From: Fluviicola sp.
GTDB taxonomy: Bacteria; Bacteroidota; Bacteroidia; Flavobacteriales_D; Crocinitomicaceae
Direction of reading: 5' to 3'
Length of the DNA: 64,000 nt
NCBI GenBank assembly: GCA_043721195.1
Contig: JAYSRF010000108.1
Span: forward strand, 21,341-85,340
The translations under genes and the position numbers were made by a program. Under the pieces are notes generated by a model. That model ran no database searches, was not told where the DNA came from, and worked only from the letters and a program-made list of their open reading frames with translations. Positions 9,504 through 47,360 of this stretch are shown piece after piece (positions within the stretch are counted from its first letter, which is position 1; each line of letters begins with the position of its first letter).

Positions 9504-9609
9504 CTTTGTCAAAGTCTTTACTTGTGACAGGCTTAATTTGTTGTTTACGTTCTAGTTCCTCAAAGCCTTTCGTTAGTTCGTCTACTGACTTTATTTTAGG
9601 CTTTCTCAT
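9454..9609 (-). CDS. Small basic protein (51 aa, not in ORF track) overlapping the transposase 3' end
   Basis: Manual translation MRKPKIKSVDELTKGFEELERKQQIKPVTSKDFDKAIDLILNPKGSPVRKK*; starts 17 nt after the XRE stop, same strand. Confidence 0.55.
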   Translation of the reverse strand: MRKPKIKSVDELTKGFEELERKQQIKPVTSKDFDKAIDLILNPKGSPVRKK

Positions 9610-9626
9610 AGTACAAATGTATGGGA

Positions 9627-9944: not shown

Positions 9945-10073
9945 TCAGTGAAGTTATTGCGAGAGGTAAATTATTTTCAGAACATTTATGATCGGTTTGT
10001 GTTTTTCTCTTATATTTACCCCTTAAACAAAAATTATGTCATGAAAAAACTAGTCTTATTCACTGCTATAAAT

Positions 10074-10238
10074 ATGAAAACTAGATTAATTATCGGATCA
10101 GTTATTCTAATCTCTTTATCTGCTTGCTCTAGTGGAACATCTGACTGTATTCAAGGTATGATGAATCAAGGCTACTCTTATGAAGAAGCAAAAGAAGGGT
10201 GTGAAGAAGCTCAAATAGAAGGACAACTACAAGATTGA
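10074..10238 (+). CDS. Small lipoprotein, IS passenger (alternative start 10041)
   Basis: MKTRLIIGSVILISLSAC lipobox; two further Cys in the mature part; track start 9870 overlaps XRE and is unlikely. Confidence 0.6.
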   Translation: MKTRLIIGSVILISLSACSSGTSDCIQGMMNQGYSYEEAKEGCEEAQIEGQLQD

Positions 10239-10789
10239 AGATTATGAAAACATCAATATTTGCAATTATGCTCACATTATGTTCTATTCTGCATGGACAA
10301 AATGATTACTATTTTGGATATCAAGAAGGTTTTAAGTATGGCTGTTCTTGTAATGATCTTCCACCTAAAAATGTTGCCTATGTTCAGGGAAATTGGGACT
10401 CTGGGTATTTGGATGGAAAGATAGACGGACTAAAATACGTTTCCTCGTCAACAAAACAAAGTACTCAATCACCACAAAAAACTACCACTCAACAACCACC
10501 TTTATACACGCCTGATTATGAACTAATAGAAAAAGTCTTAGCTGAAAAACAGCGAGTATATAACGAGCGTGTAGTTGATATACAAAATAGGATGAACCTT
10601 ATTTTTCAGCTTGTCACCCAAATTAGAGCTAAAAAGGGTAGTTTAACACAACCTCAATCTAACTATATATCCTCTTATAATACTCAGGTTAGCTTGTTTA
10701 GCGGTTGGGATTTTTCTGTTTACCAGAACTACTCCAACGTAGTAGAGTACCTAAATAAAATACAAGCTGAGATAATAACTTGGGCTTAA
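10235..10789 (+). CDS. Exported hypothetical protein, IS passenger
   Basis: Signal peptide (KTSIFAIMLTLCSILHGQ); GYQEGFKYG / GYLDGKIDG repeats; Ser/Thr/Gln linker; helical C-terminal domain. Confidence 0.7.
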   Translation: MKIMKTSIFAIMLTLCSILHGQNDYYFGYQEGFKYGCSCNDLPPKNVAYVQGNWDSGYLDGKIDGLKYVSSSTKQSTQSPQKTTTQQPPLYTPDYELIEKVLAEKQRVYNERVVDIQNRMNLIFQLVTQIRAKKGSLTQPQSNYISSYNTQVSLFSGWDFSVYQNYSNVVEYLNKIQAEIITWA

Positions 10790-10965
10790 ACTACTATATT
10801 CACAAACAAAAACCATTATGATAGTAAAAGCAATTCACTCTAAAAAAGAGATGAAAGTATATCACAATAATAACAAGTGTACTGAGAGAAATAATATTGA
10901 GAAAGAAAACATAGTACAAGGAGAGGGGGGATTGAAAATTTGTTCCAAGTGTAAAAAATTGAATT

Positions 10966-11244
10966 CTAATAAATAACAATTTCATTCACTGGGGTAAACC
11001 AGTTAGTGCCAATTATTTTTCCTGTGATACTATCATTGTTTTCCCAAACATCTTGTTTGTCATAAACACGTCTCACCTCAGAAACTTTTATTTTGTATAA
11101 AATGAATAACTCGTAAACTCTAATTAAATCGAATTCACTACCATAGAATTGAATAACAAGTTCCTCTAAACCAAGAACTGTTTGTTCATAATGTTGAATA
11201 TGTTTGAATCCGTGATTTTCTAGTATTTCTAAATATTTTTCCAT
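10966..11244 (-). CDS. Hypothetical protein, IS passenger
   Basis: 92-aa ATG ORF starting just inside the right TIR. Confidence 0.5.
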   Translation of the reverse strand: MEKYLEILENHGFKHIQHYEQTVLGLEELVIQFYGSEFDLIRVYELFILYKIKVSEVRRVYDKQDVWENNDSITGKIIGTNWFTPVNEIVIY

Positions 11245-11278
11245 CTAACTTTTGGTTTATTAAATCAATTTAAGCACA

Positions 11279-11299
11279 TGCTTTTAAGGTATAAGTGCC
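11279..11299 (-). repeat. Right terminal inverted repeat of the IS1595 element
   Basis: TGCTTTTAAGGTATAAGTGCC, immediately followed by the target duplication ATTTTTAA. Confidence 0.9.
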
Positions 11300-11315
11300 A
11301 TTTTTAAAAGTAAAC

Positions 11316-11774
11316 ATGAAAAAATTACTAGTAGTAGCTGGAATGTTCGCAGGTTTCACGTATGTTTCTTTGGCTCAAGTTCAAGAAAAGAAGGAAGAAA
11401 CTCCTAAAAAGGAAGTAGAACAAATAGAGAAAAAAAAAGGTGAGCACCACGGTGAAGGTGAACATAAAGAGCAAGGTGAAGAGAAAGAACATACTGGAAA
11501 GGGTGGTCAGAATGGATCAGGTGAACATACTGGAAAAGGTGAACATCATGGCGAAGGTGAGCATAAAGAGCACGGCGAAGAGAAAGAACATACGGAAAAA
11601 GGTGAACACCACGGTGAAGGCGAACATAAAGAGCAAGTAGAAAAGGAAAAAAAACTCGAGAAAGGAAAATCGAATCAGCCGTCAACTGAAAAAGGGAAGA
11701 GTGCTGAAAACAACCAAAAGGGTAAAACAGCAGCTGCCAAAAAAGGAACAAATAAGAAAAAGTCACGCAAATAA
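11316..11774 (+). CDS. Exported His/Glu/Gly-rich repeat protein
   Basis: Start ATG 11316 (MKKLLVVAG...SLAQ signal peptide); three KGEHHGEGEHKE repeats; Lys-rich tail; track GTG start lies in the IS TIR. Confidence 0.8.
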   Translation: MKKLLVVAGMFAGFTYVSLAQVQEKKEETPKKEVEQIEKKKGEHHGEGEHKEQGEEKEHTGKGGQNGSGEHTGKGEHHGEGEHKEHGEEKEHTEKGEHHGEGEHKEQVEKEKKLEKGKSNQPSTEKGKSAENNQKGKTAAAKKGTNKKKSRK

Positions 11775-11781
11775 TAAAAAT

Positions 11782-11944
11782 GGGGCTGTCTAAAAGGTAT
11801 CATCATTGAGTCAACCTTTGAGGTGGATTAAAAATTGATAAAATTCAAGGTGTTGAGGATGAGGTGTTTGGAGTTTACATAAGTAAATGACCAACGTCGA
11901 TTTCCGAAAATAACGCAGTAGTTTATTACTTTTTAAACACCTTC
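11782..11944. repeat. Imperfect palindromic intergenic element (REP/MITE-like)
   Basis: Arms GAGGTGGATTAAAAATTGATAAA (from 11820) and TTTATTACTTTTTAAACACCTTC (to 11944) are imperfectly complementary; central TTTAC-ATAA-GTAAA hairpin; preceded by GGGGCTGTCTAAAAGGT...ACCTTTG. Confidence 0.5.
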
Positions 11945-12024
11945 ATTTTACTTTTTCTAGGATTTACCCCATCAAAATCAACCTTTCCTAGCGAATCCGT
12001 CTGAAAATCTGCATTTTTGTCTCA

Positions 12025-13095
12025 ATGAAACAACAACGCGTAGCTTTAGTAGAATTTGCTGGTTCACATGACGAATGTTTACTCACCCAAATGGAGGCGC
12101 TTCATGCAGTTGGAGTAGAAATCATATTGGTTACCAATCAGCGTTTATTAGACCGCAACCCTGCCTGGAAAGCATATTTTAGAACTGTCTATTTTGTTGA
12201 ACCAACTGGAAAAGCCATTGGCGATTGGCGATTGATGCGACAATTGGTGCAATTTCTAAAGGAACAACAAGTTACCAAAGTCGTCTTTAATACCGCGCAA
12301 GGTGGACATATTCGCAACCTAGCGCTGTTAATGCCAAAACAAATCCAGTGCTACGGTATTATTCACACCATTCGCAAATTTCAAGGAAGTTTTACGCAGA
12401 AAATCATTCATCGAGCAATTAAAAAATACGTGGTGCTAAGTGACGATTTGTTGGAAAGAATTGTTCCACCAAAAGGAATCAACGTAGGAAGTTTTTATCC
12501 CATTTCATTTCCTCAAAGTACTTCCACCAGTGAAAAACCAGAGGGACAAATCTGGATTACCATTATAGGTGGTGTTGAAAATAGACGAAAGGATCTTCAT
12601 TCAGTTATTGATTTTATAACGAATACACCTCAACACATTCAGTTTGTTTTTCTGGGTAAAACAGATTTGCAACACCCAGATGCACAAGCATTTTTAGCAA
12701 CAATTGTTTTCGAAGGTTTAAGTGAACGAATTCGCTATTACACCGAATTTGTAGATCAAACAACATTTGATGGTGTTCTCAAGCAAACTGATTTTCTGTT
12801 GCCACTCATTCATCCTCATACACCAAGTGCCGATCAATACATCAATAATCAGATTTCAGGATCGTTTACCGTAGCGTTTGGTTATCATATTCCATTATTG
12901 ATTCATGAAGCCTATCAAACGGAGGAAGATCTTCGGGTCAGTGCACATTTTTATCAATTGAACACTTTTTCAAAACAATTGACCGCTGCAATCAGTGATC
13001 ATACTGCTCTTGTTCGTCGGATTGCCCAAGAAGAAAAATGGACAAAATCGTATCAATATGCCAATTACGTGTCTTTTTTGGATATTGGCTCGTAA
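12025..13095 (+). CDS. GT-B fold glycosyltransferase-like protein
   Basis: ITIIGGVENRRKD, QFVFLGK, DFLLPLIH...ISGSFTVAFGYHIPLL pattern resembles the nucleotide-sugar-binding domain. Confidence 0.6.
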   Translation: MKQQRVALVEFAGSHDECLLTQMEALHAVGVEIILVTNQRLLDRNPAWKAYFRTVYFVEPTGKAIGDWRLMRQLVQFLKEQQVTKVVFNTAQGGHIRNLALLMPKQIQCYGIIHTIRKFQGSFTQKIIHRAIKKYVVLSDDLLERIVPPKGINVGSFYPISFPQSTSTSEKPEGQIWITIIGGVENRRKDLHSVIDFITNTPQHIQFVFLGKTDLQHPDAQAFLATIVFEGLSERIRYYTEFVDQTTFDGVLKQTDFLLPLIHPHTPSADQYINNQISGSFTVAFGYHIPLLIHEAYQTEEDLRVSAHFYQLNTFSKQLTAAISDHTALVRRIAQEEKWTKSYQYANYVSFLDIGS

Positions 13096-13103
13096 TGCAT
13101 TCT

Positions 13104-13130
13104 GTAGGCTCGAAATGCATTCCGAGCCTA
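13104..13130. repeat. GTAG-type REP palindrome
   Basis: GTAGGCTCG-AAATGCATTC-CGAGCCTA between convergent genes; preceded by a partial copy GGCTCGTAATGCATTC. Confidence 0.8.
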
Positions 13131-14252
13131 TACAATAAACAAATCAGCCGCAATCGCGTCGGCCAATAAACGCCCTTCTTGTGTTAAGATTAAATGCGAA
13201 TCGGTTTCAATTAATTTACCCGAATTTTTCCATTGATCGAGTGATTGTTGCCAATTTTCAGGCAGTTGAAGACACCCCAATAATGCGTTTTTTGAAACAC
13301 CCCATTTTGTGCGCAGACCAATCAATATTAATTCATTGAAACGATCATTTGCAGATAAAGATTCAATGGTTTCAGGCAAATTTCCTTCTTCAATCGCTTT
13401 CATGTAGTGTTGATTATTCGCTACGTTCCAATAGCGATTGTTGCCATCAAAACCATGAGCAGAAGGACCAATTGCAACATATTTTTTACCAAACCAATAA
13501 GCTGTATTGTGTTGTGAATACTGTTCGTTTCGCGCAAAATTAGAAATTTCGTATTGCTCATAACCAGCTGTTGCAAGTGTGGTTACTAATAATTCAAACT
13601 GTTCTGATTGTTGATCAGCATTGGACGGATGAATAGCACCCGCCTTCACCCATTTTGCTAAAGGCGTTCGTTCTTCGATGGTTAAACAATACGCTGAAAT
13701 ATGATCGACATCCAAAGCGATTACCTGTTCTAATTGCAACAACCATTGTTGAGCAGATAAATCAGGTAAACCATACATTAAATCCACAGTCAAGGCGTTA
13801 AAGCCAACTTTTTTTGCGCGTTTTACGGCTTCTAAACCTTCGTTGGCAGAATGTGTACGGTTCATCCAACTCAACTGTCCGTCGGTAAATGATTGAATTC
13901 CAATGCTTAATCTGTTGACCCCAAGTGTTTTCCAACTTTCCAAATTCACTTCTGTGCAATCATCAGGATTACATTCCAGCGTTATCTCTTTTGAATGATC
14001 AGTAGTATAGTTGATTTCAACAGCCGCTAGCATTCTTTTTAACTCGTTTTTGGTCAATAAACTAGGAGTTCCACCACCAAAATAAATGGTTTCAACCGTT
14101 TCAGTTTGCCAATTGATTGCCCGTATTTCGATTTCTCGAATCAATGCAGCAATCATTCGTTCGCGATAGACCTCAAACGTTGTCGAAAAATGAAAATCGC
14201 AATACGAACATTGCTTCGCACAAAAAGGAATATGAATATAAATACCAGCCAT
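13128..14252 (-). CDS. hemW: Radical SAM heme chaperone HemW (HemN-like)
   Basis: GIYIHIPFCAKQCSYCDF (CxxxCxxC), YFGGGTPS, RLSIGIQSF, YEISNFA. Confidence 0.92.
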   Translation of the reverse strand: MAGIYIHIPFCAKQCSYCDFHFSTTFEVYRERMIAALIREIEIRAINWQTETVETIYFGGGTPSLLTKNELKRMLAAVEINYTTDHSKEITLECNPDDCTEVNLESWKTLGVNRLSIGIQSFTDGQLSWMNRTHSANEGLEAVKRAKKVGFNALTVDLMYGLPDLSAQQWLLQLEQVIALDVDHISAYCLTIEERTPLAKWVKAGAIHPSNADQQSEQFELLVTTLATAGYEQYEISNFARNEQYSQHNTAYWFGKKYVAIGPSAHGFDGNNRYWNVANNQHYMKAIEEGNLPETIESLSANDRFNELILIGLRTKWGVSKNALLGCLQLPENWQQSLDQWKNSGKLIETDSHLILTQEGRLLADAIAADLFIV

Positions 14253-14369
14253 TCACGCGAAATTAATCCAATTACAGCAATAAATAAGAATTCCTATAAT
14301 TTGCTATCAAATGTTAAAAAAGCCTCTAAACTTTGTTTGCTCAATTGAATCAACTACTTTTCTATCATC

Positions 14370-14720
14370 ATGGGATTTAAAGAACAACAAGCGGCCATAC
14401 AACGAGAGCTCGATCGATTTATTGATCTGTTGGGTGTGATGTTGCCACGCTATTCCAAATTATTGAAACGTCATAACCTCAGTGACCCAGAATTACATGA
14501 ATTAGGTGAAATCGAACACTTTTTAATTGGGGTAAACGGACGTATTTCAGAGATTCAACGCTTGCTTGAAGAAGATGTTTTCGGCAATTCGCTTGATTAT
14601 TATTACAAGTTGAAACGTCAATCGTTAAAAGGCGACGAAAATGCAACACGCAAAATGAATAAATTACGTGAAACTTTTAATGAATCCTTGCAATCTGGAA
14701 CATTGATTCATTGGAATTAA
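14370..14720 (+). CDS. Hypothetical helical protein
   Basis: 116-aa ATG ORF filling the intergenic space; no motif. Confidence 0.7.
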   Translation: MGFKEQQAAIQRELDRFIDLLGVMLPRYSKLLKRHNLSDPELHELGEIEHFLIGVNGRISEIQRLLEEDVFGNSLDYYYKLKRQSLKGDENATRKMNKLRETFNESLQSGTLIHWN

Positions 14721-14767
14721 TTCCGTTTTGTGCATGTTAATCCAATCAATAAAACACTAGAATTTCA

Positions 14768-15607
14768 TTGAAAATTGTCAATAAAGCACTTGTCATTCAA
14801 GGCGGTGGATTTAGAACTGCTTTTAGCGCAGGCGTTTTAGACGCTTTTTTATTAGCGAATTACAATCCGTTTGATGTCTACGTTGCTGTTTCTGGTGGAG
14901 CGAATGCCTTGTCCTATTATTTGGGTAATCAACATGGAAAGTGTATTGATTCTATTTACGAACTGCTGATAGATACACAGCCAAATGTTGGTCGTCTAAT
15001 TCGCACGAGAACCATTCTCAACGTTGACTTTTTCCATGAAATTGCGTCATCCATTGTTCCGCTAGATTTGGAAGCAATAGGGAAAAATCATAGCAATAAG
15101 AAGATCCGATTTGTGATGACAAATTTGGAAACAGGTAAACCCTTCTATTTTGAACCCGCACAACACAATTGGGTGGATGGATTGATTGCATCATGCACAT
15201 TACCTTTTGTTACTAAGGGAAAACACGTGATCGAAGGAATGGAATTTATGGATGGAAGTTGGAGTGATCCATTGCCAGTAGAATGGGCTATAGCGAATGG
15301 TGCAACAGAAGTTTTGATGATTCGGACCACACCCATGTATCAAAAGGAAAAACAATCCATCCCAGATTGGTTAGGGGAAAAATATCACCGAAAAAACAGT
15401 GTATTAAAGACCATTTTTGCGAATAATCATACGATTTTTAATGCTATAATTGATTTTCTAGCGTCGAATCCCACAGATGTGTCCATTCACCAAATTGCCC
15501 CAGAAAAATCATTGTCAACAGGTTCAATAGCCCCAACAAAAAAAGCCATTCAACAGGATTATGAATATGGTTTGCGTTTGGGGAATGAATATTTAAAAAT
15601 ATTGTAG
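14768..15607 (+). CDS. Patatin-like phospholipase family protein
   Basis: Gly-rich LVIQGGGFRTAFSAGVLD, nucleophile elbow AVSGGA, DGSWSDPLP. Confidence 0.85.
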   Translation: MKIVNKALVIQGGGFRTAFSAGVLDAFLLANYNPFDVYVAVSGGANALSYYLGNQHGKCIDSIYELLIDTQPNVGRLIRTRTILNVDFFHEIASSIVPLDLEAIGKNHSNKKIRFVMTNLETGKPFYFEPAQHNWVDGLIASCTLPFVTKGKHVIEGMEFMDGSWSDPLPVEWAIANGATEVLMIRTTPMYQKEKQSIPDWLGEKYHRKNSVLKTIFANNHTIFNAIIDFLASNPTDVSIHQIAPEKSLSTGSIAPTKKAIQQDYEYGLRLGNEYLKIL

Positions 15608-15738
15608 GCACGCGATTCATCGCATGCCTACAATATAATTATTCCGTATCGATAAAATAACGTAGGCTCGGGATGCCGTAAATAATGTAGGCTCGGGATG
15701 CATCCCGAGCCTACAACGATTATATTCCGTACCTACAA
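15604..15738. repeat. Cluster of GTAG-type REP palindromes (REPIN-like)
   Basis: GTAGGCACGCGATTCATCGCATGCCTAC (15604-15631), half copy GTAGGCTCGGGATGC (15662), perfect 28-bp palindrome GTAGGCTCGGGATGCATCCCGAGCCTAC (15687-15714), trailing CCTACAAC. Confidence 0.85.
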
Positions 15739-15762
15739 CAATTAAATTGTTGTTTTTTTAAA

Positions 15763-16968
15763 TTATAGTTTCGACAAATCAGGCATTTCACGTGTAAATG
15801 CTGGAATACCTGTTACATCCATACCTGTAATCAACAAATGAATATCATGTGTTCCTTCATAGGTCAATACCGATTCTAAATTGGCCATGTGACGCATCAT
15901 CGAATATTCGCTGGTAATTCCCATTCCACCGTGAATTTGACGTGCTTCGCGAGCAATATCCAAGGCAATTTCCACATTATTGCGTTTAATCATAGAAATG
16001 TGAGAAGAAGTTGCTTTGCCTTCGTTACGTAATTGTCCTACACGTAAAGTAATGAACTGCGCTTTAGTGATTTCGGTAATCATGTCAGCTAATTTCTTTT
16101 GCGTCAATTGGAAAGCACCAATTGGAACACCAAATTGGGTGCGTTGCAAAGAATAACGCAGTGCTTGATCATAACAATCCATAGCTGCACCTAGCGCTCC
16201 CCAAGCAATTCCGAAACGAGCAGAATCTAGGCAACTTAAAGGTGCGCCCAAACCACTACGTCCAGGAAGTAAATTTTCTTTCGGAACTTTTACATTTACG
16301 AAAATCAATTCACCTGTTGCAGAAGCGCGTAAAGATAATTTTCCGTGCATTTCTGGAGTCGAGAATCCTTCCATGCCACGTTCCACGATCATTCCATGAA
16401 TACGACCAGTTTCGTCTTTTGCCCAAACAACAGCGATATCAGCAAATGGAGCATTTGAAATCCACATTTTGGCACCATTCAACAAGTAATGGTCACCCAT
16501 ATCTTTAAAATTACTTGTCATTCCACTTGGATTAGATCCATGATCAGGTTCTGTTAATCCAAAACAGCCCATCATTTCACCAGTTGCCAATTTGGGCAAG
16601 TATTTCATTTTTTGTTCTTCCGAACCATATTTCCAGATTGGATACATGACCAATGAACTTTGTACCGAAGCCGTTGAACGCAAACCAGAATCACAACGCT
16701 CCAATTCCTGCATAATCAAACCATAAGAAATCTGATCCAAACCTGGACCACCATATTCTTCAGGAATATAAGGACCAAATGCACCAATTTCACCCAATCC
16801 TTTTAACAAGTGCATTGGAAATGTTGCTTTTTCGTAATGTTCATCAATTATTGGAGAAACCTCCTTTTTCACCCACGCACGAGCAGTATCACGCACTAAT
16901 TTTTGTTCATCTGTGAGTAATTCATCCATGTTCAAGTAGTCTGGATGTGTGTATAAATCAGTTCTCAT
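15763..16968 (-). CDS. gcdH: Acyl-CoA dehydrogenase (glutaryl-CoA dehydrogenase-like)
   Basis: GCFGLTEPDHGSNP, LNGAKMWISNAP, ARQIHGGMGI, LTYEGTHDIH. Confidence 0.85.
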   Translation of the reverse strand: MRTDLYTHPDYLNMDELLTDEQKLVRDTARAWVKKEVSPIIDEHYEKATFPMHLLKGLGEIGAFGPYIPEEYGGPGLDQISYGLIMQELERCDSGLRSTASVQSSLVMYPIWKYGSEEQKMKYLPKLATGEMMGCFGLTEPDHGSNPSGMTSNFKDMGDHYLLNGAKMWISNAPFADIAVVWAKDETGRIHGMIVERGMEGFSTPEMHGKLSLRASATGELIFVNVKVPKENLLPGRSGLGAPLSCLDSARFGIAWGALGAAMDCYDQALRYSLQRTQFGVPIGAFQLTQKKLADMITEITKAQFITLRVGQLRNEGKATSSHISMIKRNNVEIALDIAREARQIHGGMGITSEYSMMRHMANLESVLTYEGTHDIHLLITGMDVTGIPAFTREMPDLSKL

Positions 16969-16995
16969 CAGTTATTTGTTTACAATTTAACAGTG

Positions 16996-17003
16996 CAAAG
17001 ATA
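16996..17003 (-). promoter_or_regulatory. -7 promoter element for the acyl-CoA dehydrogenase
   Basis: TATCTTTG on the minus strand, 28 nt upstream of the start. Confidence 0.65.
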
Positions 17004-17054
17004 GTCATAAAGGCGGAATCCATGAAAATTGAACTCATGTGATTAAAGAAACAC

Positions 17055-17062
17055 TAACTTTG
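17055..17062 (+). promoter_or_regulatory. -7 promoter element for the DUF4271/hemD genes
   Basis: TAACTTTG, divergent from the previous promoter. Confidence 0.65.
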
Positions 17063-17090
17063 TATTTGCTTTACGTACATATCTTCGTCC

Positions 17091-17798
17091 ATGTCAGCAT
17101 TTATGACTTTACAAAATGACTTGCCTGAGCACTTGATTCCTAGAACTACATCGGAATCGGTGCTGGTTTTGGTATTGTTTGTAGTTTGCATTTTGTTCAT
17201 TGCTATTGGTCGATACCGAGAAAAATACGTTTTTGTTTACCTCGCACAAGCAGTTTTTTTCTTAAAGCCATTAGAAGAATTGGCACGTGAGCAATACAAA
17301 GCCAGATCTGCTACCTCCCTTTTATTTATTCTCCAGTTTTTCTTAATATCAGCTGGTGCAGTATATTGGTTGTTTTTTCTACGGACACCGCTTAGTAATT
17401 GGAATCAATTGCTCGTACCCTTATTCGTTCCCGCCATTTATTTTATTTACCAATTTATAATCAGCAATCTAGCAGCTAGAATTACTGGTCAAGCTTCGGT
17501 GGTTTTAGAGTTAAATTACTTTACCTTAGTGTTAACTCAATTGTTTGGTTTATTATTTTTACTTGAATTCTTTGTAAGTTACTTTCAACCTGCTTTTGTC
17601 ACAAAGAGTACTTGGTTGCTGGCTTTCACCTACATTGCCTATCTCATCATTCGTTTTTTTCGCGGATTTTGGATAGTTCTCAATCAAGGCGTGCCTTGGT
17701 ATTACATTATTTTGTACTTTTGGACGCTTGAAATTCTGCCCTTACTGATCGTTGCGAAACTACTGTATTATGAAGAATTTCAAACTTGGATTGGTTGA
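17091..17798 (+). CDS. DUF4271-like membrane protein
   Basis: Multiple TM segments; C-terminal YIILYFWTLEILP; typical position upstream of hemD in Bacteroidota. Confidence 0.75.
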   Translation: MSAFMTLQNDLPEHLIPRTTSESVLVLVLFVVCILFIAIGRYREKYVFVYLAQAVFFLKPLEELAREQYKARSATSLLFILQFFLISAGAVYWLFFLRTPLSNWNQLLVPLFVPAIYFIYQFIISNLAARITGQASVVLELNYFTLVLTQLFGLLFLLEFFVSYFQPAFVTKSTWLLAFTYIAYLIIRFFRGFWIVLNQGVPWYYIILYFWTLEILPLLIVAKLLYYEEFQTWIG

Positions 17799-41660: not shown

Positions 41661-41709
41661 TTCTGTTGTGAATTAAAATGAAATAAATAAAAAGGAATTT
41701 TTCAAAACG

Positions 41710-41728
41710 GCAGAGTACGTAACTCCGC
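41710..41728 (-). terminator. Putative attenuator hairpin in the arg leader
   Basis: Minus strand GCGGAGT-TACGT-ACTCTGC followed by CGTTTTG; U-tract is weak. Confidence 0.45.
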
Positions 41729-41739
41729 ATAACATATCT

Positions 41740-41805
41740 TTACCCCAAGGGGCGTCTACGTCTTAGAACGACGGATCTTAACTGATATGTTGTTGTTTTT
41801 TTCAT
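41740..41805 (-). CDS. Putative arginine leader peptide MKKTTTYQLRSVVLRRRRPLG (21 aa, not in ORF track)
   Basis: ATG 10 nt after the -7 promoter box; five Arg codons, four consecutive (AGA CGT AGA CGC); lies upstream of the arg operon. Confidence 0.75.
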   Translation of the reverse strand: MKKTTTYQLRSVVLRRRRPLG

Positions 41806-41814
41806 TGAATGGCA

Positions 41815-41822
41815 CAAAAGTA
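41815..41822 (-). promoter_or_regulatory. -7 promoter element of the arg leader/operon
   Basis: TACTTTTG on the minus strand followed by TGCC. Confidence 0.7.
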
Positions 41823-42223
41823 ATGGACTTATTTAGATAAACAACAGAATATCAACGTTTCATAAAATGTTCTTTGTTGGTTTATTTAATAAGAGAAGAT
41901 AATTAATTGAAATCGAAGCATTTAACTAAATCGATTTTATGTAATTTTTTTAACAAAAACACAATTGTTTGTGGATTCTGAGTGTTGAGTGTGCGTGTTT
42001 TTTCACCAGCAGGACTCAAGGATCTCAACTTTTTTAGTGCCATTTGCTTAAATTGGTTTTCGTTCTTCCTTGTTTTCTTTGTGAAAGGTTAAATCTCCTA
42101 TTAAATACTGAGTTTTCGGGAATTTTCATTTCAAAATGTGGAGGAGTACTTGTTGTTTTTTATAAAAATTATGTATTATTGTGGTGCATAAACAATTGAT
42201 TACTATTCACATAAACAGCCAAT

Positions 42224-43648
42224 ATGACAACACCTTCTACTCAGTCTAAAGTCAGGCTTGTCAACGAAAAGAACAAAGTCACCATTCTTCAGCGTATCGG
42301 CGTTATCATGATTATTGCTGGATTACTCGGTCTGATTACCTCTTTGTTCTTTCATTCGGATGTCAGTAAAGATGACCATCCAGATGCAGCATCCGCACCA
42401 GTTGCAGCGATCTCTTTTTTCATCACGATGCTTGGCGTTGCTTTCGCGTTCCCGACTATGCTGCGAGGCAAAGAAGGCATCAGCACGATGCGCATTGTTG
42501 TGTTCATGATGGCCAATGTGATCTGCATGCTACTGATCAAATTCGGTTGGCAGGTCAACAATTTACAGGAAATCGGGTTAGACGAATGGTGGATGGGCGT
42601 GATTGCATTTGTGTTTGGCGCGAAGGCAACGCAGAGTTATTTTGAGAGTAAATTGGCAGTGCCACGTGATACCAAAAATGGTAATCCAACTTCTTTGGGA
42701 AATACCCCTGAAAATTCCGCTACAGGAGTCACTTACACACATGCGGAAATTGCCCGATTTGCGGTGGCACAGAACGAGCAAAACCTGCGCATACAATTCC
42801 CAAATATTGTTTCTGTCAGTGATACGGTCGATAATCTTTCGAAACCGAATTCGCATGTCGTCGCGTTGTATTTGAAAGATGATAATACCTCGCGCATTCC
42901 TGCTCAACTGGAGGCAAAGATGCCAGATGGTAGTGTGCAGAGTATTGCGACGGAGGTGATATCCGAAAGCGGTGATGCAACTCCTCATTTAAACCAGGGG
43001 GATACCGTTGCAGATGTCAGAGATGCGAGTTATATCGGTTCCATTTGTTGTGCTGTTCAATCGATTAGCAACCCCTCTATTAAAGGAATTGTTACTTCAG
43101 CTCACATCTTCACCCATGGCAATTACGATACGGACAATAATAGTGTTCTCAGTGCTGATCTTCGAAGGGATGTTTTATTAGAGGGCAAAGCACAGGCAAA
43201 ATGGTTTTATAAACAGATGCTTCCCGATCAGGACTTCATCGTTGCAAAATTGAATGATGGAATATCAGAAGACGATATTACCAATCTCAAACGTTTTAAC
43301 AACCGCTATTATGATATCACAGACGCAGATGTCCAAAATCGTACAGTCGTTTCGATCCTCGCTCATGGCGGTAAGAAAACGGATGCTTATATTCTGGATA
43401 AGAACATCAATTACCCTTTCAAATATGCGAACGGTAGCTTTTTCAAAACAAACATTATTTTGATAGGCAACACTAAAATCCGAAAAAACTCACTTCCTGT
43501 TTCTACTAGCGGAGATTCAGGAAGTCCTGTATTTGTGACAATTAACAACGAGGATCACTTAGTCGGAATCTTGTTGGGATCCAATCAAAAATTCACCTTC
43601 GTACTGCCGGTGAAAGACACAATCTCTAATGGATTTAATCTCATCTAA
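42224..43648 (+). CDS. Membrane-anchored trypsin-like serine protease (4 TM + NAL1-like prodomain + S1-type domain)
   Basis: Four hydrophobic segments in the first ~140 aa; triad motifs VTSAHIF (His), QDFIVAK (Asp), SGDSGSP (Ser). Confidence 0.75.
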   Translation: MTTPSTQSKVRLVNEKNKVTILQRIGVIMIIAGLLGLITSLFFHSDVSKDDHPDAASAPVAAISFFITMLGVAFAFPTMLRGKEGISTMRIVVFMMANVICMLLIKFGWQVNNLQEIGLDEWWMGVIAFVFGAKATQSYFESKLAVPRDTKNGNPTSLGNTPENSATGVTYTHAEIARFAVAQNEQNLRIQFPNIVSVSDTVDNLSKPNSHVVALYLKDDNTSRIPAQLEAKMPDGSVQSIATEVISESGDATPHLNQGDTVADVRDASYIGSICCAVQSISNPSIKGIVTSAHIFTHGNYDTDNNSVLSADLRRDVLLEGKAQAKWFYKQMLPDQDFIVAKLNDGISEDDITNLKRFNNRYYDITDADVQNRTVVSILAHGGKKTDAYILDKNINYPFKYANGSFFKTNIILIGNTKIRKNSLPVSTSGDSGSPVFVTINNEDHLVGILLGSNQKFTFVLPVKDTISNGFNLI

Positions 43649-43664
43649 CATAAATGCTACTATT

Positions 43665-46568
43665 ATGAAGACAACTCTTTCACTACTACTTTTTGTAGGT
43701 TTCGTTTGTTTAAATGCAACTGCTCAAACAGGAAAATTCTACATCGAGCTGGATGCCGGGAATAAACCAACGGTGAAGCCTATTGGTAAATCCAACGTAA
43801 GCAACAAATATGATACGCTCCAATTGTGTTTTCCAAAGTCTATGGAGAATACGAAAATCACATTCTATGATTCACCTGACAAAGCAATGCCTGTTTTTAA
43901 AGATTCGAAGATTGTTGATCTGGCAGATGGGACGGATGAAGACACAAGTATTATAACCATCTTGAAAGTCAACGGCAATTACATAATCGAAGGCAAAACC
44001 TCTCCCAATATACCTGAAGATTTCACCATTGCTTTCAATAATAATCACACTTCGGTCTTTCATCTGGGAAAACCATCTGCCTCTGCCCAAACAGGTAAGT
44101 TCTATATCGAGCTGGGTGCTGGGAATAAACCAAATGTCAAGCCAGTTGGACAATCCAACATAAGTAACAAATATGAAACGCTCCAATTGTGTTTTCCAAA
44201 GTCAATGGAGAATACGAAAATCACATTCTTTAATTCATTTGATAAAGCAACACCTGTTTTTAAAGATAATAAGATCGTTGATCTGGCAAATGGAACATAC
44301 AAAGACACTAGTATTATAACGATCTCTAAAACCAACGGCAATTATACAATTGCAGATAAAACTTCTCCCAATTTACCTCAAAATTTCACCATTGCTTTCG
44401 ATAATAATCACACCTCGGTCTTTCATCTGGGAAAACCATCTGTAAACCCTGCCTATCGTCCAGGATATTTGTTATACGATGCCATATACATCAGCGAGCA
44501 TTGGAAAGCACAAAAAGGAGATACCATCAATTTGATTCTAAAATCGTACGGTATTAAAGATTCAAACGAACTCAAAGCAAACAATTACCTCAACAGTGTT
44601 CTCAAAGGACTTCATAAACTACCCAAAGAAGTAGTAGTGGAAGCTCATGGTGCTGGAAATCTAACCATTTCGAGTATGTTGAGTTCCGTTGGCAATCTCG
44701 ACGTCACCAATTTCGCTGACGGCCTCGCCAAATTCATTGTAGACCGCACGAAACAGGAACTCAACATCGCGTTCTTCAACAAATTCAAAGAAGCTTTGAG
44801 CGATCCGAAGTATGTTGACCTGAAAACCGTTTTCCCGGAAACTTACGAAGTATTGATGGTCATTGATAACCAGATTTACAATTACGATGATTATTTGCAG
44901 GCAATGCGAAGCGCTTTTGACCGTGATCTTTCAGATTTACCGACCAATCTGCCGTCGATCATCGATAATCATGGTTCCTATTTCGATGCAAATCCCGATC
45001 TGAAAGTCATTCTGCAAAGCAGTTTTTACATCGCTCAACAAGTGCAGTTGAAAGAACATCCTGGACAAATGATTGAGAATTATCCAGTAGATGAGTTCAT
45101 GGGAAGGTCATCCGCATCTGGAAAACCAACGGGAATCAATCAAAACATTGCTTCTTCTTTTAAAACGTTGCAATTGATCTCCAAATCCTTCAAAAGCAAA
45201 ACTGATTCCGATTCCCTTACACACTACTGGGCAAGCGACACTCTGATCAAAAAGTTGTTCAACGACGACGTTGCTGTAAAAATATATATCGGACTCCTAG
45301 AACAACAGGCAAAGAATGAAGCTATAGTTTTTGAAGGAAAGGAGCTTTGGAAAATCATCGACACTTCCTATGCTTTAAAACGCGGCTATGAGGAATACAA
45401 AAACCATTTCCGCACAGTTTCTTCAAAAATCCGTGATATTGAGAACGAGATCGATGCTCTCAAAGCAATCGACAAAGATTCCCTAAAGATTGAGAAATAC
45501 CACGATATCGCTAGTAAAGCACTCGATCTGATGGATCATTTGGTAACGGTCGAAAAAATGCCATACTTCCCAGAGAACCTGAAGATCAAAGAAAAAGCAG
45601 GTATCTATATTTATTCAGCCCGCACGGCATCGGATATTGTCATCGACGTCAACAGAAAACAATACGCCTCTGCGATCATGAAAACTGTGATGTTGTACGA
45701 CACGATCTTCCATAAGGAAGCGGTTGATAGCTTCTCATTGAATTCGTTTGATCAATTGCATAAAACCAATTTGACTCAACAGATAGCACATCTACAACAA
45801 AAAACCAGTGTGAAACAACCTAAAAAGGATCGAAGAAAGCTTCAAAAAGCTCAAAGAAAGCTTGAAAATTCTGATGATTATAAACATTTCAAAGAATGGA
45901 ATGACAGTATTCAAAAAGACATTTCGATGATTTCTAAGTCACTTCTCCAATACGGAACATTTATGGCAACCATGATTGATGCCAAAACATCAGATGATGT
46001 CGAAGCTGCCATCGAGGCTGCAGCATTACCAGTTGGATCCGCACGTATCAAACGGGAATCAACATTCAACATCGCATTGAACGCTTATTGTGGTCCGTAT
46101 ATGGGCTATGAGCGTGTCTTTGACCTCGATCCGAAGTGGATGTCAGCCAAGAAAAGCACCATAAACAGTTACGGACTTACTGCCCCAGTAGGAATATCCA
46201 TTAGCTATGGTGGAAATTATAAAGGGGTGAAAAACCATTCTTCTTACAGCCTTTTCCTATCGGTGATTGACGTCGGTGCTATTGCTTCTTTCCGTTTCAA
46301 TGACTCAACAACAGAAGTTTTGCCGACTATCCAGCTGAAAAACATCCTTTCACCAGGAATTTTCTTTTCATACGGAATTCCTACTTTGCCAATTTCTGTG
46401 AATGCTGGCTGGCAAATGGGACCTCTTCTGCGAAAGGTCGATGCGGAAATTAATGAAAACACCTATAGCGAACGCTATGGCCGTGTAAGTATTTCGATTT
46501 GCGTTGACATACCAATCGTTAATTTTTACACATTCACAAGTTCTAACAAACCGAGATTCAGACTTTAG
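43665..46568 (+). CDS. Large exported hypothetical protein with duplicated N-terminal domain, helical core and beta-strand-rich C-terminus
   Basis: Signal peptide MKTTLSLLLFVGFVCLNATAQ from ATG 43665; 121-aa tandem repeat; C-terminal amphipathic strands (FNIALNAYCG, YSLFLSVIDVG, ISVNAGWQMG, VSISICVDIP). Confidence 0.8.
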   Translation: MKTTLSLLLFVGFVCLNATAQTGKFYIELDAGNKPTVKPIGKSNVSNKYDTLQLCFPKSMENTKITFYDSPDKAMPVFKDSKIVDLADGTDEDTSIITILKVNGNYIIEGKTSPNIPEDFTIAFNNNHTSVFHLGKPSASAQTGKFYIELGAGNKPNVKPVGQSNISNKYETLQLCFPKSMENTKITFFNSFDKATPVFKDNKIVDLANGTYKDTSIITISKTNGNYTIADKTSPNLPQNFTIAFDNNHTSVFHLGKPSVNPAYRPGYLLYDAIYISEHWKAQKGDTINLILKSYGIKDSNELKANNYLNSVLKGLHKLPKEVVVEAHGAGNLTISSMLSSVGNLDVTNFADGLAKFIVDRTKQELNIAFFNKFKEALSDPKYVDLKTVFPETYEVLMVIDNQIYNYDDYLQAMRSAFDRDLSDLPTNLPSIIDNHGSYFDANPDLKVILQSSFYIAQQVQLKEHPGQMIENYPVDEFMGRSSASGKPTGINQNIASSFKTLQLISKSFKSKTDSDSLTHYWASDTLIKKLFNDDVAVKIYIGLLEQQAKNEAIVFEGKELWKIIDTSYALKRGYEEYKNHFRTVSSKIRDIENEIDALKAIDKDSLKIEKYHDIASKALDLMDHLVTVEKMPYFPENLKIKEKAGIYIYSARTASDIVIDVNRKQYASAIMKTVMLYDTIFHKEAVDSFSLNSFDQLHKTNLTQQIAHLQQKTSVKQPKKDRRKLQKAQRKLENSDDYKHFKEWNDSIQKDISMISKSLLQYGTFMATMIDAKTSDDVEAAIEAAALPVGSARIKRESTFNIALNAYCGPYMGYERVFDLDPKWMSAKKSTINSYGLTAPVGISISYGGNYKGVKNHSSYSLFLSVIDVGAIASFRFNDSTTEVLPTIQLKNILSPGIFFSYGIPTLPISVNAGWQMGPLLRKVDAEINENTYSERYGRVSISICVDIPIVNFYTFTSSNKPRFRL
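43722..44442 (+). repeat. Intragenic tandem duplication, 363-bp period (2 copies)
   Basis: GCTCAAACAGGAAAATTCTAC at 43722 vs GCCCAAACAGGTAAGTTCTAT at 44085; both end TTTCATCTGGGAAAACCATCTG. Confidence 0.95.
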
Positions 46569-46592
46569 AACGCGATTGATCAGATTTATTTG

Positions 46593-46630
46593 GTCCCGGA
46601 ATGCAATTTGATATTCTGGGACTTTTATTG
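46593..46630 (+). terminator. Intrinsic terminator after the large exported protein
   Basis: GTCCCGGAAT...ATTCTGGGAC stem followed by TTTTATTG. Confidence 0.65.
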
Positions 46631-46832: not shown

Positions 46833-47360
46833 TCAACTCACCCTTTTAAACGTGCGCATCTTTTTCAAGGCAGGAGATTTAATGAGTTTTTTCCACTCTT
46901 TATCGGTTGCTAAATACTTTACAAAAACGATTCCTTCTTCTGTATCTTCTTCTTGGTAATGCTTTACGTATCGCTTCGCGTCTTCATCAAAACCATAGAC
47001 AACCAATTCATTCGGGTTGGGAAGTTTAATGATGTAATTCAACCATAAACTATCTCCAGCAATGCTGAATACAAAGTCGTTACCTAGTCTTCGAATTTCT
47101 ACAGAATCAGTAACCAAGTACATTGTTTGCGGTGAATCAGGTGCTAATGAATTCATTTCATACGTCACAGAAGAATCATCAAATGCAACTTTATCGACAT
47201 AAAATGCAGTACTTTCCTCTGTTGATTCCCATGAACCATGTAATGCGGCAGGAAAGGATTTTAAAGGTTTTTCCTTACTGGGTTGTGCTTTATCAAAAGC
47301 TGCTGCAGTACATGATTGGATTGCTAAAGCAATTAGAAGAAAATACCAAAAATGTTTCAT
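46833..47360 (-). CDS. Lipoprotein, hypothetical
   Basis: MKHFWYFLLIALAIQSC lipobox. Confidence 0.75.
   Translation of the reverse strand: MKHFWYFLLIALAIQSCTAAAFDKAQPSKEKPLKSFPAALHGSWESTEESTAFYVDKVAFDDSSVTYEMNSLAPDSPQTMYLVTDSVEIRRLGNDFVFSIAGDSLWLNYIIKLPNPNELVVYGFDEDAKRYVKHYQEEDTEEGIVFVKYLATDKEWKKLIKSPALKKMRTFKRVS

What the first reader, a model, noticed from the sequence alone, without database searches (positions are those of the whole stretch)
42224..46568. Two-gene island: 4-TM trypsin-like protease fusion plus giant exported protein
Seen: gene 1 has four TM segments (STMRIVVF...FVFGAKATQSYFE, reminiscent of small holin-like membrane proteins), a linker, a NAL1-like prodomain pattern (FPNIVSVSD...VVALYLKDD...IPAQLE) and an intact His/Asp/Ser triad. 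Gene 2 starts 16 nt later with a signal peptide, duplicated beta-rich domains, a long helical core containing a hydrophobic segment (SSVGNLDVTNFADGLAKFIV) and a barrel-like C-terminus. The block is flanked by ~560-nt and ~260-nt non-coding gaps, and several counted lines reach about 52-55% G+C versus about 40% in housekeeping genes. Inference: a horizontally acquired protease-plus-substrate system, for example proteolytic activation of an outer-membrane-anchored effector, adhesin or pore former, or a membrane damage/phage sensor. I recognise no named system.
Basis: partly seen in the sequence, partly recalled or inferred. Interest (0 to 1): 0.7.

Follow-up and report, generated by a model that had tools for sequence, protein, structure and literature searches.

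The report
Membrane-tethered protease with exported partner protein
A freshwater Fluviicola bacterium carries a mobile two-gene unit: a serine protease fused to a small four-helix membrane domain, and a large exported protein with a barrel-like tail; this is the shortest form of a widespread, undescribed Bacteroidota gene module whose exported protein almost always follows an interchangeable protease lacking an export signal.

Summary
Gene 1 (42224-43648) encodes four TM helices, a disordered linker and a chymotrypsin-fold protease. Its His294/Asp337/Ser432 triad is invariant, and its best fold matches are rice NAL1. Gene 2 ("D", 43665-46568) has a signal peptide, two beta-sandwich domains (a recent duplication unique to this genome), a large helical core and a beta-rich, barrel-like tail.

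Neither gene matches Pfam, NCBIfam, PADLOC, PHROGs or PDB sequences. In 77 of 79 judgeable D loci from other genomes, a protease gene sits directly upstream. It is gene-1-like in 33 loci and an S8 subtilase in 44. The protease is fused to, or encoded beside, one of two unrelated inner-membrane modules. These partner types are interleaved on the D tree.

Proteases that are not fused to a membrane module lack signal peptides, and D has one, so the two proteins start in different compartments. S8-type versions often add signal-less muramidases or amidases. The module is patchy (D in about 4% of sampled Bacteroidota), absent from the phage and plasmid collections searched, and sits at different genomic places.

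Best reading (about 0.4): a holin-like gated, envelope-breaching or export device with D as outer-membrane partner or substrate. No function has been shown.

The parts
41823..42223 (+). Upstream non-coding region, presumed promoter region of the two-gene operon (shared divergently with the arg operon leader at 41661-41822)
   Evidence: No ORF of note and no Rfam match. Leader peptide MCHSMKKTTTYQLRSVVLRRRRPLG on the minus strand (earlier finding e1-5245314). No promoter was demonstrated; the sigma-70 scan is at chance level.
42224..43648 (+). Gene 1: 474-aa fusion of a 4-TM membrane domain and a NAL1-like (chymotrypsin-fold) serine protease
   Evidence: ORF. 182 homologues in Bacteroidota, all 'hypothetical'. 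AF2 model. Fold hits to NAL1.
42284..42658 (+). 4-TM domain (residues 21-145), with near-invariant STMR and FGAKATQ motifs. It is more conserved than the protease.
   Evidence: Alignment A1. AF2 helices. Charge bias: N-terminus +3.9, loop 1 -1.1, loop 2 +0.9, loop 3 -1.6; TM4 is weakly hydrophobic. It also exists as stand-alone 130-220-aa proteins. No Pfam or PHROG family.
42659..42724 (+). Disordered linker (residues 146-167) between the membrane domain and the protease
   Evidence: pLDDT below 50. Variable in length and sequence in A1.
42725..43003 (+). Alpha/beta domain (one helix plus four strands, residues 168-260), resembling the ATP-binding domain that precedes the NAL1 protease domain
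   Evidence: AF2 secondary structure. Foldseek alignments to NAL1 span about 370 columns. NAL1 domain layout from PMC12012508. ATP binding was not tested.
43004..43645 (+). Serine protease domain. Catalytic codons: His294 (43103-43105), Asp337 (43232-43234), Ser432 (43517-43519, in GDSGS).
   Evidence: Invariant columns in 36 sequences. Fold hits to NAL1, Lysobacter L1/L5 proteases and viral 3C-type proteases. Only weak GDSG-region Pfam and NCBIfam hits.
43665..46568 (+). Gene 2 ('D'): 967-aa exported protein of an uncharacterised family
   Evidence: ORF. 137 homologues. No Pfam, NCBIfam or PADLOC match. No PDB sequence or fold match. No viral fold match.
43665..43724 (+). Signal peptide (residues 1-20), ending ...ATA|Q
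   Evidence: 86 of 90 D proteins have a signal-peptide-like N-terminus. Most end in xQ at the predicted cut, as expected for Bacteroidota signal peptidase I substrates (own knowledge).
43715..44377 (+). Recent in-frame tandem duplication (two 300-nt copies, 363-nt period) giving two beta-sandwich domains (residues 21-135 and 142-255)
   Evidence: the repeat finder family D1, 83% identity. AF2 strands. The duplication is missing in the closest homologue P0122. The N-terminal beta domain is variable or absent in the family.
44619..44708 (+). Disordered linker (residues 319-348) before the conserved core
   Evidence: pLDDT below 50. Variable in A2.
44706..46064 (+). Conserved alpha-helical core (residues 348-800), beginning with the motif GNLDVTNFADGLAKFIVDRTKQEL
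   Evidence: AF2 helices. Invariant and near-invariant columns in A2 and A3.
46023..46058 (+). Conserved exposed loop ALPVGSARIKRE (residues 787-798) with a universal dibasic K[RK]. It is a candidate cleavage site or hinge between the helical core and the beta domain.
   Evidence: P789 and K796 are invariant and R797 is near-invariant. The motif is present in D proteins of all partner types. pLDDT is below 50 at 788-793. Cleavage here is an inference.
46065..46535 (+). C-terminal beta-rich, outer-membrane-barrel-like domain (residues 801-957), ending ...VDIPIVNFYTF plus a short basic tail
   Evidence: Long amphipathic strands in AF2. Only weak Foldseek hits, to OmpA-TM, PagL and viral OM-barrel proteins. 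Alignment A9. Barrel closure was not verified.
46592..46623 (+). Terminator-like hairpin 24 nt after the gene 2 stop
   Evidence: 12-bp stem followed by a T-run.

Best explanation
The pair is the minimal, fused form of a modular envelope system of Bacteroidota and a few neighbouring lineages (one Ignavibacteriaceae and one Kryptoniota locus). The system has three roles.

1. A small polytopic inner-membrane protein. Here it is the 4-TM 'STMR' domain; elsewhere it is an unrelated 3-TM protein that I call B.
2. A serine protease that lacks an export signal and is held at the cytoplasmic end of that membrane protein. The tether is a fusion here. Elsewhere it is probably docking of an SH3-like tag on the conserved tail of B.
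3. D, a Sec-exported protein that is probably anchored in the outer membrane by its C-terminal beta domain, with its helical body in the periplasm.

I propose that the membrane module acts like a holin. On a trigger it oligomerises and opens the inner membrane. Oligomerisation would also assemble the NAL1-like protease into its active oligomer. The tethered or docked enzymes then reach the periplasm. There the protease acts on D, for instance at the conserved dibasic loop ALPxGSxRIKR, so that D breaches or opens the outer membrane. The outcome would be altruistic lysis (abortive infection) or release of enzymes.

Shown here: the gene linkage, the swapping of partners, the domain anatomy, the signal-peptide asymmetry, and the patchy, non-viral distribution. 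Inferred: the topology. Speculative: gating, cleavage of D, and the biological role.
For: Linkage:
- In the D-centred scan of GTDB genomes, 77 of 79 judgeable loci have a protease gene immediately upstream and co-directional. Of these, 44 are S8 subtilases and 33 are gene-1-like proteases: 10 fused to the 4-TM domain, 15 fused to B or to a compact B, 1 carrying the SH3-like tag, and 7 bare.
- Gaps between the protease gene and D are 2-16 nt.
- Partner types are interleaved on the D tree, so they were exchanged many times in front of closely related D genes.

Compartment asymmetry:
- 86 of 90 D proteins have signal-peptide-like N-termini. The S8 and bare gene-1-like proteases do not.
- Charge bias of the 4-TM domain fits N-in/C-in.
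- L079 and L085 carry a signal peptide followed by 3 B-like TM helices and then the protease, which also places the protease inside.

Holin-like signature:
- S8-type modules often add signal-less cell-wall enzymes carrying the same N-terminal tag. These include a GH25 muramidase (E 3e-19), a GH46-like glycosidase (E 2e-9) and Amidase_2+SH3.
- B tails end in a conserved xVG.
- Stand-alone 4-TM proteins have proline-rich tails. They lie next to a signal-less amidase and a Tle1-like lipase, or next to a papain-like protease.

Protease activation: NAL1 needs hexamer assembly for activity (PMC12012508).

Accessory, non-viral character:
- D occurs in 17 of 400 sampled Bacteroidota and the 4-TM domain in 2 of 400.
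- No homologue in 50,697 phage records or 72,556 plasmids, and no D homologue in IMG/VR.
- Some copies lie in defence or mobile regions.
Against: - No experiment supports any step.
- The 4-TM domain matches no holin family in Pfam or PHROGs.
- The window's version has no cell-wall hydrolase, so it cannot be a full lysis cassette.
- A protease fused to the membrane protein cannot simply diffuse through a hole.
- In the closest Fluviicola relatives the TM domain has been lost while the protease and D remain. The membrane domain is therefore dispensable there or is supplied from elsewhere.
- TM4 is only weakly hydrophobic (Kyte-Doolittle 0.93), so the topology is not certain.
- The barrel call for D rests on a medium-confidence model and non-significant fold hits.
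- Enrichment of defence genes in the flanks is modest: only a small minority of 145 flank genes match PADLOC models (each model matched at most 2 members), some of them possibly module accessories.
- An earlier report proposing the holin-like reading for the B+S8+D form was later marked 'in doubt'.
Confidence: 0.4

Rival explanations
1. Trans-envelope signalling with a cytoplasmic protease as output. D is an outer-membrane or periplasmic sensor of envelope damage, phage adsorption or contact. The 4-TM or B protein passes the signal across the inner membrane. The tethered protease then cuts cytoplasmic targets (a regulator, or many proteins for growth arrest). No membrane is breached.
For: The protease is predicted to lie on the cytoplasmic side and D is exported. 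The 4-TM domain is conserved far beyond what a mere anchor needs. NAL1 is a cytoplasmic/nuclear regulator-cleaving protease that is active only as an oligomer. Some loci lie among NLR-like, TIR and gasdermin defence genes.
Against: The signal-less muramidase, GH46-like enzyme and amidase that carry the same tag in S8-type modules have no substrate in the cytoplasm. The periplasmic loops of the 4-TM domain are very short (7 and 12 residues on average), leaving little surface for contact with D. Versions without a TM domain exist. No candidate cytoplasmic substrate is encoded in the module.
Confidence: 0.22
2. Conventional periplasmic processing. TM4 does not span the membrane, so the domain is 3-TM with N-in/C-out topology. 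The protease is then a membrane-anchored periplasmic enzyme that matures, activates or turns over D, which could be an outer-membrane adhesin, pore former or structural protein.
For: TM4 is weakly hydrophobic and carries an invariant Lys and Gln. D has a universally conserved dibasic loop and a variable disordered linker that would suit cleavage. The linkage between protease and D is tight.
Against: Bare gene-1-like proteases and all S8 partners lack signal peptides. B fusions (a signal peptide plus 3 TM helices) place the protease inside. A periplasmic tail on B could not dock the signal-less tagged enzymes. NAL1-type proteases are intracellular enzymes.
Confidence: 0.15
3. A dedicated non-lytic secretion route for tagged hydrolases. 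The inner-membrane module translocates docked or fused enzymes, and D oligomerises into an outer-membrane conduit. The enzymes, released by self-cleavage of the linker in the fused form, are delivered outside the cell to attack prey or competitors.
For: The accessory enzymes resemble antibacterial or antifungal effectors: GH25, GH46-like, amidase, papain-like proteases, and patatin-, Tle1-, DUF676- and PLD-type lipases. D combines long helices with a few beta hairpins per chain, an arrangement that in TolC (own knowledge) builds a channel by oligomerisation. The host taxa are degraders and predators.
Against: There is no energy source (ATPase) in the module. Fold matches of D to TolC-type channels are not significant (CmeC E about 1). 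The sparse, single-copy distribution looks more like an accessory conflict system. This reading overlaps with the best explanation and differs only in outcome.
Confidence: 0.13
4. Co-transcribed but mechanistically unrelated genes, for example an outer-membrane structural protein next to a general quality-control protease.
For: No direct evidence of interaction exists. The surrounding contexts are heterogeneous.
Against: Adjacency holds in 77 of 79 loci across orders. It persists through repeated replacement of the protease by a different protease class. That is very hard to explain without a functional tie.
Confidence: 0.05

Closest known systems
Rice NARROW LEAF 1 (NAL1) serine protease (PDB 7y77, 8has, 8pmi)
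   Same: It is the best fold match for residues ~170-474 of gene 1 (Foldseek E 6e-12, prob 1.0, TM about 0.5). Both have a chymotrypsin-type two-barrel protease with a His/Asp/Ser triad, preceded by a small helix-plus-four-strand domain. Both lack an export signal.
   Different: There is no detectable sequence similarity: the A1 profile does not find NAL1 among PDB sequences. Gene 1 has a 4-TM N-terminal domain in place of the NAL1 NTD. ATP binding and hexamer formation were not tested. It is a bacterial operon partner of an exported protein, not a plant developmental regulator.
Phage holin-endolysin-spanin lysis cassettes and type 10 (holin-dependent) secretion
   Same: A small polytopic inner-membrane protein is encoded next to hydrolases that lack signal peptides, together with an outer-membrane component. 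The S8-type relatives include signal-less GH25, amidase and GH46-like enzymes.
   Different: No component is homologous to known holins, endolysin-linked spanins or T10SS parts. The module is absent from the phage collections. A serine protease and D are the constant parts, while the cell-wall hydrolase is optional and is missing in the window. The enzymes are tethered to the membrane protein by fusion or by a tag.
Bacterial gasdermin plus associated protease systems
   Same: The logic is similar: a constant effector-like protein is encoded after an interchangeable protease (trypsin-like or subtilisin-like), with a patchy, defence-island-like distribution. One homologous locus lies beside a true bGSDM/caspase/TIR cluster.
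   Different: D has no gasdermin fold or Pfam match. It is three to four times larger, carries a signal peptide and is exported. Gasdermins are cytoplasmic and act on the inner membrane from inside.
Earlier finding e1-2219965 of this scan (3-TM protein + SH3b-subtilase + 676-aa secreted orphan)
   Same: It appears to be the same superfamily of modules. Its 'secreted orphan' fits the D family described here, and its 3-TM protein fits B; both identifications rest on architecture and size, not on sequence (the by-sequence look-up found nothing). I re-found that architecture in 44 of 79 D loci.
   Different: The window carries the fused 4-TM/NAL1-like variant without cell-wall hydrolases. The earlier holin-like export reading was later marked 'in doubt'.

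Membership tests
Chymotrypsin-fold (clan PA) serine protease | Two beta-barrel fold with a His/Asp/Ser triad in that order and a GDSG motif around the Ser | tested here: met
   H294, D337 and S432 are invariant in 36 sequences. AF2 fold and Foldseek hits to NAL1, Lysobacter L1/L5, 3C and trypsin-type proteases.
Chymotrypsin-fold (clan PA) serine protease | Match to the Pfam Trypsin/Trypsin_2 models above the gathering score | tested here: not met
   Only sub-threshold hits (Peptidase_S32 at 14.7 bits, Rv1815-type at 12.5 bits). One homologue (P0019) has a precomputed PF00089 hit.
NAL1 family | Sequence homology to NAL1 | tested here: not met
   The A1 profile against all PDB sequences finds no NAL1 chain at E up to 1.
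NAL1 family | Protease domain preceded by the helix-plus-four-strand (ATP-binding) domain | tested here: inconclusive
   AF2 shows H173-191 plus four strands before the protease. Foldseek alignments to NAL1 cover about 370 columns. Nucleotide binding is unknown.
NAL1 family | Trimer or hexamer cage required for activity | not testable with these tools
Holins | Match to a described holin family | tested here: not met
   No Pfam or PHROG holin hit for the 4-TM domain, for nine stand-alone relatives, or for B.
Holins | Small polytopic membrane protein with a cytoplasmic tail, encoded beside signal-less muralytic enzymes | tested here: inconclusive
   Met for B-type modules and for one stand-alone 4-TM locus. 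Not met in the window, which has no muralytic enzyme.
Holins | Forms lethal membrane lesions when triggered | not testable with these tools
   Needs expression and membrane-potential assays.
Outer-membrane beta-barrel proteins (OmpA/PagL-like small barrels) | Signal peptide plus C-terminal amphipathic strands that close into a barrel, ending in an aromatic-rich last strand | tested here: inconclusive
   Signal peptide present. Six to eight long strands and a terminal ...NFYT(F). Foldseek hits to OmpA-TM and PagL are not significant (E 0.3-1.2). No PDB sequence hit.
Bacterial gasdermin systems | Gasdermin fold or Bact_GSDM domain in the protease-adjacent protein | tested here: not met
   No Pfam or PADLOC hit and no fold hit. 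D has a signal peptide.
Catalogued anti-phage defence systems (PADLOC 2.0) | Match of either protein to a defence-system model | tested here: not met
   Zero families for both proteins at E up to 1.
Phage spanins | Phage-encoded, with an OM lipoprotein and/or an IM-anchored periplasm-spanning helical protein | tested here: not met
   No lipobox. No homologue in phage genomes or IMG/VR, and no viral fold match.

The most novel reading that the evidence does not exclude
The D family, its interchangeable signal-less proteases, and the two unrelated inner-membrane docking modules together form a previously unrecognised envelope-spanning machine of Bacteroidota. Enzymes that lack signal peptides would be tethered to a gate protein, by fusion or by an SH3-like tag bound to the gate's conserved tail, and passed across the inner membrane. 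D would be the protease-controlled outer-membrane exit or breaching device. This would be a new route for lysis or secretion, built from parts unrelated to any known secretion system or phage lysis gene.
Probability: 0.25. Interest if true: 0.85.

Novelty: categorically new. Interest (0 to 1): 0.7.

Why it matters
The D family (184 confirmed loci among 185,579 species genomes, found with only two peptide patterns, so a lower bound) has no annotation at all. The same is true of both membrane partners. Yet D keeps a protease gene in front of it through many exchanges of protease class. That pattern marks a real, selected functional unit.

The unit poses a clear and testable puzzle: how does a protease without an export signal, held at the inside face of the inner membrane, work with a partner that is exported towards the outer membrane? 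Solving it could reveal one of three things: a new lysis or secretion principle in a phylum important in soils, waters and guts; a new abortive-infection mechanism; or a new trans-envelope signalling mode.

It also gives the first bacterial operon context for a NAL1-like protease fold. That context may help explain the origin and the oligomerisation-dependent control of the plant enzyme.

Tried and rejected
Searches that found nothing useful:
- Pfam, NCBIfam and PADLOC on both proteins gave nothing above threshold.
- PHROGs and Pfam on the 4-TM domain and on stand-alone relatives gave nothing. PHROGs on B gave nothing.
- PDB sequence profiles for gene 1, for D and for the D tail gave nothing significant.
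- Foldseek of D against PDB and BFVD gave no significant hit.
- tblastn of D and of gene 1 against 50,697 phage records, of D against 72,556 plasmids, and a D scan of IMG/VR found no homologue. I therefore rejected the idea that this is a phage- or plasmid-borne lysis cassette.
- The first genome scan with the 38-sequence alignment failed because it had no conserved stretch. It was repeated with 12 sequences.
- No Rfam match or notable small ORF was found in the flanking gaps.

Tests with negative or weak results:
- hhalign of the 4-TM domain against B showed no homology (probability 1.4%). Only a short FG[AS]K motif in the last helix is shared.
- I looked for a clean empty site between the arg operon and metG in relatives. 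The interval holds other, ordinary genes there, so there are no insertion boundaries, flanking repeats, tRNA or integrase.
- A weak 4-TM-like 81-aa ORF lies in a possibly phage-derived block of another genome. Only one neighbouring gene matches a PHROG, so I did not use it as evidence.
- The flank-gene tallies (Pfam, PADLOC) show no dominant neighbour and only modest defence enrichment.
- I considered a gasdermin-like reading of D and rejected it (signal peptide, size, no fold match).
- I considered Sec export of the protease for L079 and L085 and rejected it. Their signal peptide precedes three B-like TM helices.

Full report
**What is in the window**

Two co-directional ORFs lie at 42224-43648 (474 aa) and 43665-46568 (967 aa), 16 nt apart. 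The start at 43665 (MKTTLSLLL...) is the one shared by the homologues. A terminator-like hairpin follows at 46592-46623.

The 560-nt gap upstream is partly used by the divergent arginine operon leader. No Rfam family matches either gap.

G+C is only modestly raised: a peak of 0.46 over 500 nt, against about 0.40 nearby. GC3 is 0.44 (gene 1) and 0.41 (gene 2), against 0.28-0.32 in the arg genes and metG.

**Gene 1**

No Pfam, NCBIfam or PADLOC model reaches threshold. Only the GDSG region gives weak protease hits.

Homologues are numerous in Bacteroidota (Fluviicola, Flavobacterium, Pedobacter, Xanthocytophaga, Lentimicrobium) and are all annotated 'hypothetical'. In 36 aligned sequences H294, D337 and S432 are invariant. 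The membrane region is even more conserved than the protease, with the motifs STMR and FGAKATQSYFE.

The AF2 model (pLDDT 80.5) has these parts:
- four TM helices;
- a disordered linker (146-167);
- a helix-plus-four-strand domain;
- a two-barrel protease.

The 28 best PDB fold matches are all rice NAL1 (E 6e-12, prob 1.0). They are followed by Lysobacter L1/L5 and viral 3C-type proteases. NAL1 consists of an NTD, an ATP-binding domain (four strands and a helix) and the protease, and it is active only as a hexamer (PMC12012508). The likeness is at fold level only, because the family profile does not find NAL1 by sequence.

**Gene 2 (D)**

D matches no protein family, no PDB sequence, and no significant PDB or viral fold.

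The AF2 model (pLDDT 76.6) has these parts:
- a signal peptide;
- two beta-sandwich domains;
- a small helical bundle;
- a disordered linker (319-348);
- a large helical core (348-800);
- long amphipathic strands (801-957).

The only fold hints for the strands are non-significant matches to small outer-membrane barrels (OmpA-TM, PagL).

The second beta-sandwich is a recent tandem duplication (83% DNA identity, 363-nt period) that the closest homologue lacks. The N-terminal beta domain is variable or absent in the family. The conserved parts are the helical core, the loop ALPxGSxRIKR and the beta tail.

**The wider module**

A D-centred scan of one genome per GTDB species confirmed 184 loci, of which 80 were kept. 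I called ORFs in them and classified the neighbours with profiles built here.

In 77 of 79 judgeable loci a protease gene lies immediately upstream of D on the same strand:
- In 44 loci it is an S8 subtilase with an N-terminal SH3-like tag. Most of these are preceded by a 320-550-aa three-TM protein (B).
- In 33 loci it is a gene-1-like protease. Ten are fused to the 4-TM domain as in the window, 15 are fused to B or to a compact B, one carries the SH3-like tag, and 7 are bare.

The 4-TM domain and B are not detectably homologous. On a tree of D the partner types are thoroughly interleaved. For example, an S8 locus is sister to a 4-TM locus, and a B-fusion is sister to an S8 locus. Proteases and membrane partners have therefore been exchanged repeatedly in front of closely related D genes. 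In the window's own clade the TM domain was lost in the nearest Fluviicola relatives, while the protease and D stayed.

**The compartment puzzle**

D has a signal-peptide-like N-terminus in 86 of 90 cases, mostly ending in xQ. The S8 and bare gene-1-like proteases have none.

The 4-TM domain shows a clear positive-inside pattern: N-terminus +3.9, loop 1 -1.1, loop 2 +0.9, loop 3 -1.6. This predicts N-in/C-in, although TM4 is weakly hydrophobic.

Two loci carry a signal peptide followed by three B-like helices and then the protease. That arrangement also puts the protease inside. B proteins end in a conserved xVG tail. Stand-alone 4-TM proteins have proline-rich tails. So the protease begins at the cytoplasmic face and D begins outside the inner membrane.

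**Clues to function**

S8-type modules often contain further signal-less enzymes with the same N-terminal tag:
- a GH25 muramidase (E 3e-19 to cellosyl);
- a GH46-like glycosidase (E 2e-9);
- an Amidase_2 with an SH3 domain.

A stand-alone 4-TM gene lies between a signal-less amidase and a Tle1-like lipase. Another is followed by a papain-like protease. Flanking genes include patatin, PLD, DUF900, DUF676 and papain-like enzymes.

Signal-less cell-wall enzymes beside a small polytopic membrane protein are the classical holin signature. The module is nevertheless not viral, because no homologue appears in phage genomes, IMG/VR or plasmids.

The module is sparse and mobile:
- D occurs in 17 of 400 sampled Bacteroidota genomes (16 of 180 genera).
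- The 4-TM domain occurs in 2 of 400.
- A clear gene-1 homologue occurs in 2 of 24 same-genus genomes, with one further 25%-identity match.
- The interval between the arg operon and metG holds unrelated genes in relatives.
- Elsewhere the pair lies among caspase-NLR/TIR/gasdermin genes, or next to PRTRC and other conflict genes.
- Among 145 flank genes, the 25 PADLOC models listed each match only one or two genes, so defence-type neighbours are few.

**Interpretation**

The linkage, and its survival through swaps of protease class, show that protease and D work together.

The best-supported mechanism (about 0.4) is a holin-like gated device. The membrane module holds the enzymes inside until a trigger. 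Oligomerisation then opens the membrane and, for the NAL1-like enzyme, could assemble the active oligomer. The protease then acts on D, perhaps at the universal dibasic loop that lies in a low-confidence hinge between core and tail. D in turn breaches or opens the outer membrane.

The rivals are:
- trans-envelope signalling to a cytoplasmic protease (0.22);
- a conventional periplasmic processing protease, if TM4 does not span the membrane (0.15);
- a non-lytic secretion route (0.13);
- no functional tie (0.05).

**Relation to earlier work in this scan**

Finding e1-2219965 described the B + SH3-subtilase + 'secreted orphan' form and proposed holin-like export. It was later marked 'in doubt'. 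My analysis suggests that its 'secreted orphan' belongs to the D family; I could not confirm this by sequence, because the by-sequence look-up found nothing. It also shows that the window carries a fused variant with a different protease and a different membrane module. These points add comparative support for a common principle, but they are not independent proof of the mechanism.

**Limits**

Everything functional here is inference.

Noticed in passing
window 43715-44377: In-frame tandem duplication of a 363-nt unit (83% identical over 300 nt). It gives D a second N-terminal beta-sandwich domain and is absent from the 89%-identical closest homologue, so it is a very recent event.
   Followed up: yes
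window 41740-41817 (minus strand): The small ORF MCHSMKKTTTYQLRSVVLRRRRPLG, with four consecutive Arg codons, lies upstream of the arginine operon. It is the leader noted in earlier finding e1-5245314 and uses part of the 'island' upstream gap.
   Followed up: partly
L017, L019, L031 ... (B proteins; e.g. L019:9685-10971, minus strand): The 3-TM B proteins end in a strikingly conserved C-terminal xVG (…EEAVG, …KRVG, …QPVG) after a variable low-complexity tail. Their partner enzymes all start with the same SH3-like tag (MKVTVTKxLNVRxGxPSVNAP…). This suggests tail-tag docking.
   Followed up: partly
L104:7174-8222, L115:5245-6368, L118:5453-6420: Stand-alone 4-TM genes are translationally coupled (4-nt overlap or 5-nt gap) to an upstream gene of about 200 aa with no known family. 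In L104 the neighbours are a signal-less Amidase_2 and a Tle1-like phospholipase.
   Followed up: partly
L105:7206-7451: An 81-aa ORF weakly similar to TM3-TM4 of the 4-TM domain (it includes an STMR motif). It sits among small membrane-protein genes after large tail-fibre-like ORFs. The block may be a prophage lysis region, but only one neighbour matches a PHROG.
   Followed up: partly
L004 (Xanthocytophaga agilis contig, 1-17407): A homologous pair lies inside a dense conflict island: two caspase-like/nSTAND proteins, a bacterial gasdermin, a caspase-TIR protein and a TIR-nSTAND-WD40 giant.
   Followed up: no
G000:C282:96-863 (same genome, another contig; L010): A second, distant (24% identity) gene-1-like protease ORF of 296 aa in the window's own genome. 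No D gene was detected nearby by the genome search.
   Followed up: no
L020:8088-9401 and L021:5528-6502: In two loci with very divergent, 990-1030-aa D-like proteins, a weakly gene-1-like protease gene lies downstream of D instead of upstream.
   Followed up: no
window 46833-47360 (minus strand): A 175-aa lipoprotein-like gene (MKHFWYFLLIALAIQSC…) lies between D and metG. It has no family match and is absent from the same interval in relatives, so it may have arrived with the pair or separately.
   Followed up: partly
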